Source of the DNA: a virus
Taxonomy: Duplodnaviria > Caudoviricetes
Length of the DNA stretch: 64,000 nt
IMG/VR virus record: IMGVR_UViG_3300024270_000002
Strand: one strand, 5' to 3'
Positions 43,333-43,445 of this stretch are shown piece after piece. A model generated the notes under the pieces. The model was not told the DNA's origin. It worked only from the letters and a program-made list of their open reading frames with translations, and made no database searches. Position numbers and translations under genes: made by a program. Position 1 is the first letter of the stretch. Each line of letters opens with the position of its first letter.

Positions 43333-43445
43333 GAGCCAATACTTATTTCTAATGCTGGGAACTGTGTGTCGTAGGTTCAAATCCTACCTTGGCGACCATC
43401 GCCAAGTAGCTCAGTGGTAGAGCAATAGTTAATTATAGTTTGGCC
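43333..43445 (+). ncRNA. bulged-stem RNA copy 3 containing permuted tRNA mimic (YrlA-like)
   Basis: T arm GTAGG-TTCAAAT-CCTAC, closed acceptor CTTGGCGA-CCA-TCGCCAAG, D arm GCTC-AGTGGTA-GAGC. Confidence 0.85.

What the first reader, a model, noticed from the sequence alone, without database searches (positions are those of the whole stretch)
43333..43445. Circularly permuted tRNA mimic with CCA sealed inside the acceptor hairpin
Seen: within copy 3 the order is T arm, then CTTGGCGA-CCA-TCGCCAAG (a perfect 8-bp hairpin whose loop is CCA), then TA-GCTC-AGTGGTA-GAGC (D arm), with AACTGT/ATAGTT taking the place of the anticodon stem. Known: this topology is the hallmark of YrlA-type bacterial Y RNAs. 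Inference: it ties the eight-copy family to Y-RNA biology. The retained CCA suggests derivation from a circularised tRNA or from adjacent tandem tRNA genes, and RNase P could open the hairpin.
Basis: partly seen in the sequence, partly recalled or inferred. Interest (0 to 1): 0.8.

Follow-up and report, generated by a model that had tools for sequence, protein, structure and literature searches.

The report
Back-to-front tRNA mimic on phage RNA
A large uncultured phage encodes a 113-base RNA in which a proline-tRNA look-alike is wired back to front, its CCA end sealed in a hairpin, on a conserved 'handle' shared by a family of small RNAs that sit beside one unstudied protein; it is built like bacterial Y RNAs (YrlA) but fails the tests for belonging to them.

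Summary
Window 43333-43445 is a 113-nt unit with this order: conserved handle, anticodon-stem 3' strand, variable loop, T arm, 8-bp acceptor hairpin with loop CCA, D arm, anticodon-stem 5' strand, handle.

Nine orthologues and 16 paralogues keep every helix through compensatory changes (94.8-96.3% of cells paired). ACCA is kept in eight of the nine orthologues.

New here: the element still carries U34-G35-G36-G37-A38 in an internal loop, plus C1-G72 and A73. That is the bacterial tRNA-Pro identity set.

The YrlA reading holds for the design but not for membership:
- Rfam YrlA scores 39.2 bits against a threshold of 69.
- The Ro60-binding motif GNCGAAN0-1G is absent.
- No TROVE gene lies within 4 kb, nor in three near-complete related phage genomes.

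The eight-copy family shares a different handle (GA-5 bp-U-RCU-UAUUUCU...AGY-5 bp-C). Its inserts are anticodon loops or whole tRNA bodies. It always flanks a 660-aa protein with a helical domain and a TerD-like domain. That protein's likeness to Ro60 is weak and inconclusive.

RNase P opening at 43399/43400 has a published precedent (M. smegmatis YrlA) but is untested here.

This scan has already found the same handle-RNA and TerD-protein pair on other DNA. I found no paper or Rfam family describing it.

The parts
43333..43350 (+). Handle, 5' strand: GA, 5-nt stem GCCAA, bulged U, ACU, invariant UAUUUCU
   Evidence: The motif has 8 matches in the window against 0.25 expected. The 5-bp and 3-bp stems are 100% paired with compensatory changes across 16 units.
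43351..43353 (+). AAU, pairs with AUU at 43432-43434 (short connector helix)
   Evidence: Ortholog alignment A4: 85% of cells paired. All pairs are A-U, so the information content is low.
43354..43360 (+). Internal loop GCUGGGA, tRNA positions 32-38. U34 G35 G36 G37 A38 match the tRNA-Pro(UGG) anticodon loop; U33 is lost.
   Evidence: GCUGGG is invariant in 9 orthologs. The numbering follows from the 5-bp anticodon stem. The phage's own tRNA-Pro loop reads UUUGGGA. G35/G36 are ProRS identity elements (PMC11229370).
43361..43365 (+). Anticodon-stem 3' strand (positions 39-43), pairs with 43425-43429
   Evidence: 100% paired in orthologs, with one compensatory pair.
43366..43370 (+). Variable loop GUGUC (G46, C48)
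   Evidence: Read from the sequence. C48 can pair with G15 (Levitt pair); this is inferred from tRNA numbering.
43371..43387 (+). T arm: GUAGG-UUCAAAU-CCUAC
   Evidence: YrlA and tRNA model alignments. 98.8-100% paired with compensatory changes.
43388..43394 (+). Acceptor 3' strand (positions 66-72), ending in G72
   Evidence: In the family alignment 8 of 8 hairpin pairs show compensatory changes. Three do among orthologs.
43395..43398 (+). A73 and C74-C75-A76. A73 pairs with U(-1); CCA is the hairpin loop.
   Evidence: GACCA is kept in 8 of 9 orthologs, with loop CCA or CCAA. L079 has CAAA instead.
43399..43399 (+). U(-1). The predicted RNase P cut lies between 43399 and 43400.
   Evidence: Inferred from tRNA numbering and from the M. 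smegmatis YrlA precedent (PMC4201824). Not tested here.
43400..43408 (+). Acceptor 5' strand C1-G7, then U8 A9
   Evidence: Sequence and pair counts.
43409..43424 (+). D arm GCUC-AGUGGUA-GAGC (A14, G15, G18, G19, A21), then A26
   Evidence: YrlA model alignment. 98.4% paired in the family alignment.
43425..43436 (+). Anticodon-stem 5' strand AUAGU (27-31), UA (opposite the 7-nt loop), AUU, AU
43437..43445 (+). Handle, 3' strand: AGU, UUGGC, C
43249..43309 (+). Preceding family unit (copy 2). Its insert is an anticodon stem-loop copy with loop CUUUUAA (tRNA-Lys UUU). A promoter-like site lies at 43217-43244.
   Evidence: The order 'Lys-loop unit, then this unit' recurs in L001, L077, L080, L083, L085 and L181.
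40630..42612 (+). Candidate partner gene: a 660-aa protein with a helical N-terminal domain and a TerD-like C-terminal domain, flanked by family units
40479..40534 (+). Family unit 1 (loop CUGGAAA), about 95 nt upstream of the partner gene

Best explanation
Window 43333-43445 encodes a roughly 113-nt non-coding RNA of an uncatalogued phage family of 'handle' RNAs.

The handle is a covarying 5-bp stem, a bulged U, a 3-bp stem and the invariant single-stranded UAUUUCU. It holds the RNA's two ends together. By analogy with Y RNAs and Ro60, it is probably the docking site for the 660-aa helical/TerD-like protein encoded next to these RNAs. This docking is inferred.

The insert is a complete tRNA body in circularly permuted order. 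All the nucleotides needed for the L-shaped elbow are present. It derives from, or mimics, tRNA-Pro(UGG). Its chain enters and leaves on the 5' side of the anticodon loop. Its acceptor end is closed by a loop that is the encoded CCA.

It most likely acts as a structural tRNA mimic that engages tRNA-recognising proteins and couples them to the handle's partner. Candidates are RNase P, modification enzymes, ProRS and host tRNA-cutting defence nucleases.

RNase P probably nicks it between 43399 and 43400. That would give a two-piece RNA with a free ACCA-3' end, as happens to M. smegmatis YrlA.

Shown: the sequence anatomy, the fold by covariation, the family, the gene neighbourhood, and the failure of the YrlA membership tests. 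Inferred: expression, protein binding, RNase P cleavage and function.
For: - Anatomy and fold.
- Covariation in the family: 94.8% of cells paired against 71% in shuffles; 24 of 30 pairs have compensatory changes; the acceptor hairpin has 8 of 8.
- Covariation among the 9 orthologs: 96.3% paired, 6 compensatory pairs, and handle, GCUGGG and GACCA conserved.
- Family size: 80 distinct units in related phages.
- Inserts: 50 of the 80 units carry a hairpin with a canonical 7-nt anticodon-like loop, against 14.6 +/- 3.4 in shuffles. T loops are included in this count. Examples are UUUGGGA, CUUUUAA, CUGCAAA and CUGGAAA.
- Seven units are whole permuted tRNAs with intact Asn, Lys, Thr, Arg or Ser anticodon loops.
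- Pro identity set C1-G72, A73, G35, G36. A paralogue that also keeps ACCA (L046:968) has G3.U70, A73 and GGC, the Ala set.
- Partner gene: it is adjacent to units in loci found through the RNA alone, down to a 41%-identical homologue. In cultured Rhodobacter phage RcXuper, four RNAs sharing GGRCAUACUUCUA stand just upstream of the homologue. One of them is a permuted tRNA mimic.
- RNA-repair context: a Pnkp-like gene lies next door. In relatives there is an RNA ligase in 3 of 3, RtcB beside a unit in one, and a CCA-adding-type enzyme in 2 of 3.
- RNase P precedent: PMC4201824.
Against: - There are no expression, end-mapping or binding data.
- The protein-RNA link rests on conserved neighbourhood in one phage lineage plus a few distant cases.
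- One ortholog (L079) has lost the CCA, and most paralogues never had one. A free CCA end therefore cannot be essential to the family.
- U33 is absent, so the anticodon side cannot form a normal U-turn.
- The single-sequence folding z-score is modest (-2.6).
Confidence: 0.5

Rival explanations
1. It is a genuine YrlA-type Y RNA that works through a Ro60/Rsr protein. Because the phage has none, that protein would be supplied by the host. The RNA would tether or gate it, as in the Rsr-YrlA-PNPase particles.
For: The Rfam YrlA model aligns over its full length at 39.2 bits, E = 1.2e-5. The stretch UCUAAUGCUGGGAACU resembles the YrlA consensus CgaAUGCuuggGgaaCU. Phages are known to carry Ro60 with Y-like RNAs (PMC4201824; PMC12135203). 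Some gut bacteria have TROVE proteins: the control hit in Bacteroides thetaiotaomicron.
Against: The score is far below the gathering score of 69. For other family units the match covers only the tRNA-like core, model positions 23-86. Tandem tRNAs already reach 27 bits. GNCGAAN0-1G/CGAA is absent, and the handle stem covaries freely where Ro60 reads bases. No TROVE gene is within 4 kb or in 3 near-complete relatives. Published YrlA lie within 4 kb of rsr. The host is unknown.
Confidence: 0.1
2. It is a free-standing decoy or sponge with no dedicated protein partner. The sealed tRNA-Pro look-alike and its sister units that display anticodon loops soak up host tRNA-targeting defence nucleases or tRNA-modifying enzymes. 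The handle only stabilises the RNA and defines its ends.
For: The inserts are faithful copies of anticodon loops of several tRNAs. The locus sits between an RNA-repair kinase gene and the tRNA array. Relatives carry RNA ligase and RtcB. A sealed acceptor would keep a decoy out of translation.
Against: A mere clamp would not need an invariant 7-nt single strand and a bulged U that are conserved from these phages to RcXuper-like motifs. The strict neighbourhood with one protein gene goes unexplained. No cognate nuclease is known, and I found no paper on such decoys.
Confidence: 0.2
3. It is a circularly permuted tRNA-Pro gene. The ends are trimmed and joined by phage Pnkp and RNA ligase, and RNase P and a 3' nuclease open the acceptor loop. 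This yields a working tRNA, as in the red alga Cyanidioschyzon merolae.
For: A complete tRNA body with encoded ACCA and the Pro identity set. The phage's only ordinary tRNA-Pro is itself interrupted. Pnkp and RNA ligase genes are present. Sister units carry intact anticodon loops.
Against: Positions 32-33 read GC, not YU. About 45 nt of handle would have to be removed precisely from both ends, and no bulge-helix-bulge or other known splice signal is present. The same handle carries inserts that are not tRNAs at all. Most permuted sisters lack CCA and a cognate discriminator. The handle is the most conserved part of the RNA, which is odd for something that would be discarded.
Confidence: 0.07
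4. It is a decaying remnant of two adjacent tRNA genes with no function of its own.
For: tRNA arrays with near-zero spacers exist in the window, and such junctions do hit the YrlA model.
Against: The two acceptor strands are complementary at 7 of 7 positions, against 1-6 of 7 at real junctions. Compensatory substitutions among orthologs preserve every helix. The handle and GCUGGG are invariant. The element keeps its place in at least 9 diverged phages.
Confidence: 0.03

Closest known systems
YrlA, the tRNA-like Y RNA of bacteria and mycobacteriophages (Rfam RF02553; Chen et al. 2014, PMC4201824; Wang et al. 2018, bioRxiv 10.1101/312249)
   Same: Same order: T arm, closed acceptor-like hairpin, D arm. 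The RNA's ends leave through the anticodon-stem side into a protein-binding stem. It is modular and has sister RNAs nearby. M. smegmatis YrlA has a 7-bp acceptor stem, is cut by RNase P and carries CCA.
   Different: The handle is different, with no GNCGAAN0-1G. No TROVE/Ro60 gene is nearby or in related genomes. The score is below the Rfam threshold. CCA is encoded rather than added. Anticodon nucleotides 34-38 and an aminoacylation identity set are retained.
Thermus phage phiLo Ro60 with Yrl1/Yrl2 (PMC12135203)
   Same: A phage-encoded protein with small structured RNAs encoded beside its gene, proposed to capture a host enzyme.
Two-piece (circularly permuted) tmRNA
   Same: The gene order T arm, acceptor 3' strand, CCA, spacer, acceptor 5' strand. 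It is matured by cuts in the spacer.
   Different: There is no tag reading frame and no pseudoknots. The Rfam tmRNA_permuted model does not hit this locus. A real one does sit beside the RcXuper units.
Circularly permuted tRNA genes of Cyanidioschyzon merolae and Thermofilum (Soma et al. 2007; Chan et al. 2011; from my own knowledge)
   Same: The 3' half lies upstream of the 5' half, and an acceptor junction is to be opened by RNase P.
   Different: Those genes restore a normal anticodon loop through a bulge-helix-bulge splice and a circular intermediate. Here the ends carry a conserved handle and the loop cannot be restored without unknown cuts.
Handle-RNA plus helical/TerD-protein pair noted earlier in this scan on other phage and bacterial DNA (unpublished AI notes)
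   Same: Same plan: several small RNAs with one handle and swappable tRNA-piece inserts beside a helical plus TerD protein gene. I reached this independently and confirmed it in RcXuper.
   Different: The handle sequence differs between lineages: UAUUUCU here, ACUUCUA in RcXuper. This copy adds the tRNA-Pro identity set and the encoded CCA.

Membership tests
YrlA (Rfam RF02553) | tRNA-like domain in the order T arm, closed acceptor-like stem, D arm | tested here: met
   cmscan alignment and covariation.
YrlA (Rfam RF02553) | Score at or above the curated gathering threshold (69 bits) | tested here: not met
   39.2 bits. Sister units score 24-47 bits, mostly over the tRNA-like core only.
YrlA (Rfam RF02553) | GNCGAAN0-1G motif near the 5' end, the presumed Ro60 contact (Chen et al. 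2014) | tested here: not met
   The aligned place reads UUCUAAUG. The handle stem GCCAA varies to GCCUA, GCUUG, GCUCA and ACCUA in sister units.
YrlA (Rfam RF02553) | Encoded within about 4 kb of a Ro60/TROVE gene on the same strand | tested here: not met
   The ORFs from 39469 to 47619 have no TROVE match. PF05731 is absent from 5 related records, 3 of them at least 91% complete, and the controls were positive. The window's own full genome was not available.
YrlA (Rfam RF02553) | Bound by Ro60/Rsr | not testable with these tools
   Needs co-immunoprecipitation or gel shift. The host is unknown.
Ro60/TROVE protein (for the neighbouring 660-aa gene) | TROVE HEAT-repeat ring plus vWA domain | tested here: inconclusive
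Handle-RNA family of this phage group (uncatalogued) | 5' GA-N5-U-RCU-UAUUUCU ... AGY-N5'-C 3', with both stems complementary | tested here: met
Handle-RNA family of this phage group (uncatalogued) | Lies next to the helical/TerD protein gene | tested here: met
   The unit starts 721 nt downstream of the gene's end. The same holds in all orthologous loci.
Circularly permuted tRNA gene (C. merolae type) | Joining the ends restores a 7-nt anticodon loop, and a bulge-helix-bulge lies at the junction | tested here: not met
   Positions 32-33 are GC, and about 45 nt of handle intervene. No BHB can be drawn from the sequence.
Two-piece tmRNA | Tag reading frame and tmRNA core, detected by Rfam tmRNA_permuted | tested here: not met
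   No match at 43200-43800 at E up to 10.
Bacterial tRNA-Pro (identity, not function) | G72, A73, G35 and G36 (PMC11229370) | tested here: met
   All four are present: 43394, 43395, 43357 and 43358. They are conserved in orthologs. Charging by ProRS was not tested.

The most novel reading that the evidence does not exclude
The handle RNAs and the helical/TerD protein form a previously undescribed phage ribonucleoprotein, analogous to Ro60-Y RNA. It displays tRNA parts as baits. In this copy RNase P opens the sealed acceptor, giving a two-piece tRNA-Pro mimic with a free ACCA end. That mimic can be prolylated, or at least bound by ProRS. The particle would then sense, sequester or repair components of the host's tRNA-targeting defences.
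Probability: 0.15. Interest if true: 0.85.

Novelty: new variant of a known kind. Interest (0 to 1): 0.62.

Why it matters
Permuted tRNA mimics with a sealed acceptor end are so far known only as YrlA Y RNAs, which work with Ro60. Here the same design sits on a different handle. It has a different likely protein partner and lies in a phage tRNA and RNA-repair neighbourhood. Its sister RNAs display anticodon loops.

If the protein binds the handle, this is a second Ro/Y-like way of presenting tRNA shapes. It is widespread in large phages and relevant to the conflict over tRNA cleavage between phages and bacteria.

The encoded CCA and the full tRNA-Pro identity set make concrete tests possible: RNase P cleavage, CCA status and charging.

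Tried and rejected
1. Exact 41-nt search of IMG/VR for the element found nothing. Relatives were reached through the neighbouring protein and degenerate patterns instead.
2. A scan of 185,579 species genomes for GAGCCNATRCTTATTTCT gave 120 or more hits, but 111 of the 120 lack the 3' complement, about the number chance would give. True units occurred only on phage-like contigs binned with one Bacteroidales MAG and one Lachnospiraceae MAG. There is therefore no cellular copy and no host call.
3. Ro60 identity of the neighbouring protein was not established:
   - Pfam.
   - PDB sequence profiles.
   - A whole-library profile search: 185 clusters, all of the same architecture.
   - Foldseek.
   - Only VIA-align gave weak, long Ro60 alignments.
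4. The element is not a recent copy of any tRNA in the window. The best combined local score was 33 of 68, and the acceptor differs from the phage's tRNA-Pro.
5. The handle geometry of this phage could not be found unchanged in RcXuper. Only a related motif, ACUUCUA after a stem, is shared.
6. Literature searches found no description:
   - permuted tRNA in phages
   - anticodon-nuclease decoys
   - GOLLD and tRNA-like RNAs
   - TROVE-TerD
   - the catalogue of 10,006 viral structured RNAs (PMC10690425), whose supplements are not held and could not be checked
7. The sigma-70-like site that ends at 43332 sits too close to the unit's first base to be its promoter. Co-transcription with copy 2 is more likely.

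Full report
**Setting**

The window is phage-like, with nearly all genes on the + strand. It holds a tRNA array at 44.7-59.2 kb (31 ARAGORN calls) and a GOLLD RNA at 57469-57989 (160 bits). The neighbouring protein occurs on contigs up to 243 kb. Relatives are IMG/VR contigs of 220-223 kb that are 96-100% complete. No whole genome is held for the window.

**The observation**

In order, with tRNA numbering, the unit 43333-43445 consists of:
- handle 5' strand GAGCCAAUACUUAUUUCU (43333-43350)
- AAU
- GCUGGGA (43354-43360)
- ACUGU (positions 39-43)
- variable loop GUGUC
- T arm GUAGG-UUCAAAU-CCUAC
- acceptor 3' strand CUUGGCG (66-72)
- A73 (43395)
- CCA (43396-43398)
- U(-1) (43399)
- acceptor 5' strand CGCCAAG (1-7, 43400-43406)
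- U8 A9
- D arm GCUC-AGUGGUA-GAGC
- A26
- AUAGU (27-31)
- UA, AUU, AU
- handle 3' strand AGU-UUGGC-C (43437-43445)

U8, A14, G15, G18, G19, A21, G46, C48, T54, T55, C56 and A58 are all in place, so an L-shaped elbow is possible. This is read from the sequence and inferred from standard tRNA numbering.

The MFE fold gives the handle, the T arm and the acceptor hairpin (-34.6 kcal/mol; z = -2.6).

**Is it more than chance?**

The 8-bp hairpin alone is not remarkable. One such hairpin occurs in the window, with 0.57 expected. The whole arrangement is remarkable:
- The Rfam YrlA model aligns over its full length at 39.2 bits, E = 1.2e-5.
- Two real tandem-tRNA junctions in the window reach only 27.3 and 24.6 bits.
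- Neighbouring acceptor strands at six close tandem junctions pair at 2-6 of 7 positions, and at 1 of 7 at a more widely spaced pair. Here they pair at 7 of 7, or 8 of 8 with A73-U(-1).

**Relatives and covariation**

The neighbouring protein gave ten IMG/VR loci. A pattern joining the handle to a T loop gave 66 more. A pattern specific to this unit gave nine metagenome contigs.

A script that requires the handle and its 3' complement found 80 distinct units.

Sixteen units with a permuted tRNA insert were aligned (A2). On the structure I specified:
- 94.8% of cells are paired, against 71.4% in shuffles and 31-46% when partners are slid.
- 24 of 30 pairs show changes on both sides.
- All 8 acceptor-hairpin pairs show compensatory changes.
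- The handle is 100% paired.

Nine orthologs of this very unit were aligned (A4). In them:
- The handle, AAUGCUGGG and CGACCA are invariant or nearly so.
- The outer acceptor stem changes from CUUGG/CCAAG to CCYGC/GYGGG, with three compensatory pairs.
- 96.3% of cells are paired.
- The loop is CCA or CCAA in eight orthologs and CAAA in one, L079.

The fold and the ACCA are therefore under selection in this lineage, but CCA is not absolutely required.

**A proline-tRNA look-alike**

Counting back from the 5-bp anticodon stem, GCUGGGA occupies positions 32-38. That places U34 G35 G36 G37 A38. The phage's own (intron-split) tRNA-Pro has the loop UUUGGGA.

The acceptor has C1-G72 and A73. [quoted passage not shown]

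So the 'missing anticodon' is not missing. The chain leaves on the 5' side of the loop, at positions 31-33, and the anticodon remains displayed in a 7-nt/2-nt internal loop.

A paralogue that also keeps ACCA (L046:968-1087) has G3.U70, A73 and GGC, the alanine set. Most other permuted paralogues lack CCA and a cognate discriminator.

The element is not a recent copy of any tRNA in the window.

**The family**

The eight window copies and their relatives share GA-N5-U-RCU-UAUUUCU ... AGY-N5'-C. Their inserts fall into these groups:
- Short hairpins whose 7-nt loops are exact anticodon loops. Examples are UUUGGGA (Pro) at window 57014, CUUUUAA (Lys) at 43249, CUGGAAA at 40479, and CUGCAAA (Cys) elsewhere.
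- Whole permuted tRNAs with an intact anticodon loop, where the handle enters at nt 28/29-29/30 (Asn, Lys, Thr, Arg and Ser loops).
- Permuted bodies without a closed loop. This unit is one; another type carries CCAGCUGG.
- A T arm plus acceptor minihelix.
- One tRNA in normal order.
- One unit nested inside another's acceptor loop, directly after ACCA (L047:10895).

Fifty of the 80 units have a canonical YU-NNN-R-N loop hairpin, against 14.6 +/- 3.4 in shuffles. T loops are counted too.

No Rfam 15 family covers the handle.

**Is it a YrlA?**

In design, yes. By membership, no:
- The score is below threshold.
- For sister units the model matches only its tRNA-like core.
- The GNCGAAN0-1G motif that Chen et al. 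link to Ro60 binding is absent.
- The handle stem covaries freely.
- No TROVE domain lies within 4 kb.
- No TROVE domain is in five related records, three of them at least 91% complete, and the controls were positive.

**The neighbouring gene**

A 660-aa ORF (40630-42612; the ATG start is shared with homologues) is flanked by units in every locus. This includes loci found through the RNA alone and a homologue only 41% identical.

For the helical domain alone, the three Ro60 clusters of the PDB are the only chains aligned over more than 200 residues:

Distant homologues exist in cultured phages. In Rhodobacter phage RcXuper the gene RCXUPER_7 is preceded by a permuted tmRNA and four RNAs that share GGRCAUACUUCUA. 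The first of these carries T arm, closed acceptor and D arm (YrlA model 40.7 bits). The gene is followed by a nucleotidyl transferase.

**Context**

- A Pnkp-like kinase gene (39469-40398) lies upstream.
- A YafQ-like toxin with a small upstream ORF (42735-43192) is inserted between the protein gene and the RNAs in only some relatives.
- Relatives encode an RNA ligase (3 of 3), RtcB next to a unit (1 of 3) and a CCA-adding-type enzyme (2 of 3).
- A promoter-like site at 43217-43244 fits a start at copy 2. Many orthologs have TATAAT 7-8 nt before the first G of this unit.

**How it most likely works**

Shown: the anatomy, the conserved fold, the family and the neighbourhood.

Inferred: the RNA is made, folds into an L shape on a handle, and acts as a tRNA mimic. 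The handle docks on the neighbouring protein, as Y RNAs dock on Ro60. RNase P can cut between 43399 and 43400 to leave ACCA-3', as shown for M. smegmatis YrlA.

Whether the mimic is a bait for defence nucleases, a tether for tRNA enzymes or a chargeable two-piece tRNA cannot be decided here.

**Earlier notes**

After forming this reading I found that the scan had already described the same pair, handle RNAs with a helical/TerD protein, on other DNA. Those are unchecked AI notes. I re-derived the pairing independently and tested it in RcXuper. They lower the claim to a first sighting but do not count as evidence.

Noticed in passing
window 43461-43568: A tRNA-like gene directly downstream. It has a paired acceptor (GCUGAUU/AGUCAGC), a long insertion, and a CCUCC/GGAGG stem with loop CUUUAAA. 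ARAGORN and Rfam tRNA do not call it.
   Followed up: no
window 42735-43192: A YafQ/ParE-type toxin ORF (Pfam YafQ_toxin, E = 1e-20) with an overlapping 54-aa upstream ORF, probably its antitoxin. It is inserted between the TerD-like gene and the RNA units. Among relatives it is present only in L080 and L181.
   Followed up: partly
window 40479, 43249, 57014: The short inserts of sister units are exact anticodon stem-loops: CUGGAAA, CUUUUAA (Lys UUU) and UUUGGGA (Pro UGG). In copy 2 the handle's GCUUAU can also pair with AUAAGC of the insert.
   Followed up: partly
L047:10895-11072: A permuted tRNA unit whose acceptor 'loop' begins with ACCA and contains a complete second family unit. This suggests that the acceptor junction is processed.
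   Followed up: no
L046:968-1087: A permuted unit with G3.U70, A73, encoded CCA and GGC at the anticodon place. It is an alanine-tRNA look-alike.
   Followed up: no
L004:18339-18443: The same handle carrying a tRNA-like insert in normal (not permuted) order, joined through its acceptor ends.
   Followed up: no
L206 (Rhodobacter phage RcXuper, record 3216-4250): An unannotated permuted (two-piece) tmRNA (Rfam, 108 bits), followed by four unannotated small RNAs sharing GGRCAUACUUCUA. All lie upstream of the homologue of the 660-aa protein and a nucleotidyl transferase gene.
   Followed up: partly
window 57522-57672: A weak YrlA-model match (30.3 bits) inside the GOLLD RNA.
   Followed up: no
G002 (record of L010/L017), about 2925-4214: An RtcB RNA ligase gene lies about 200 nt from a family unit. 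This recalls the rsr-yrlBA-rtcBA arrangement of Salmonella.
   Followed up: no
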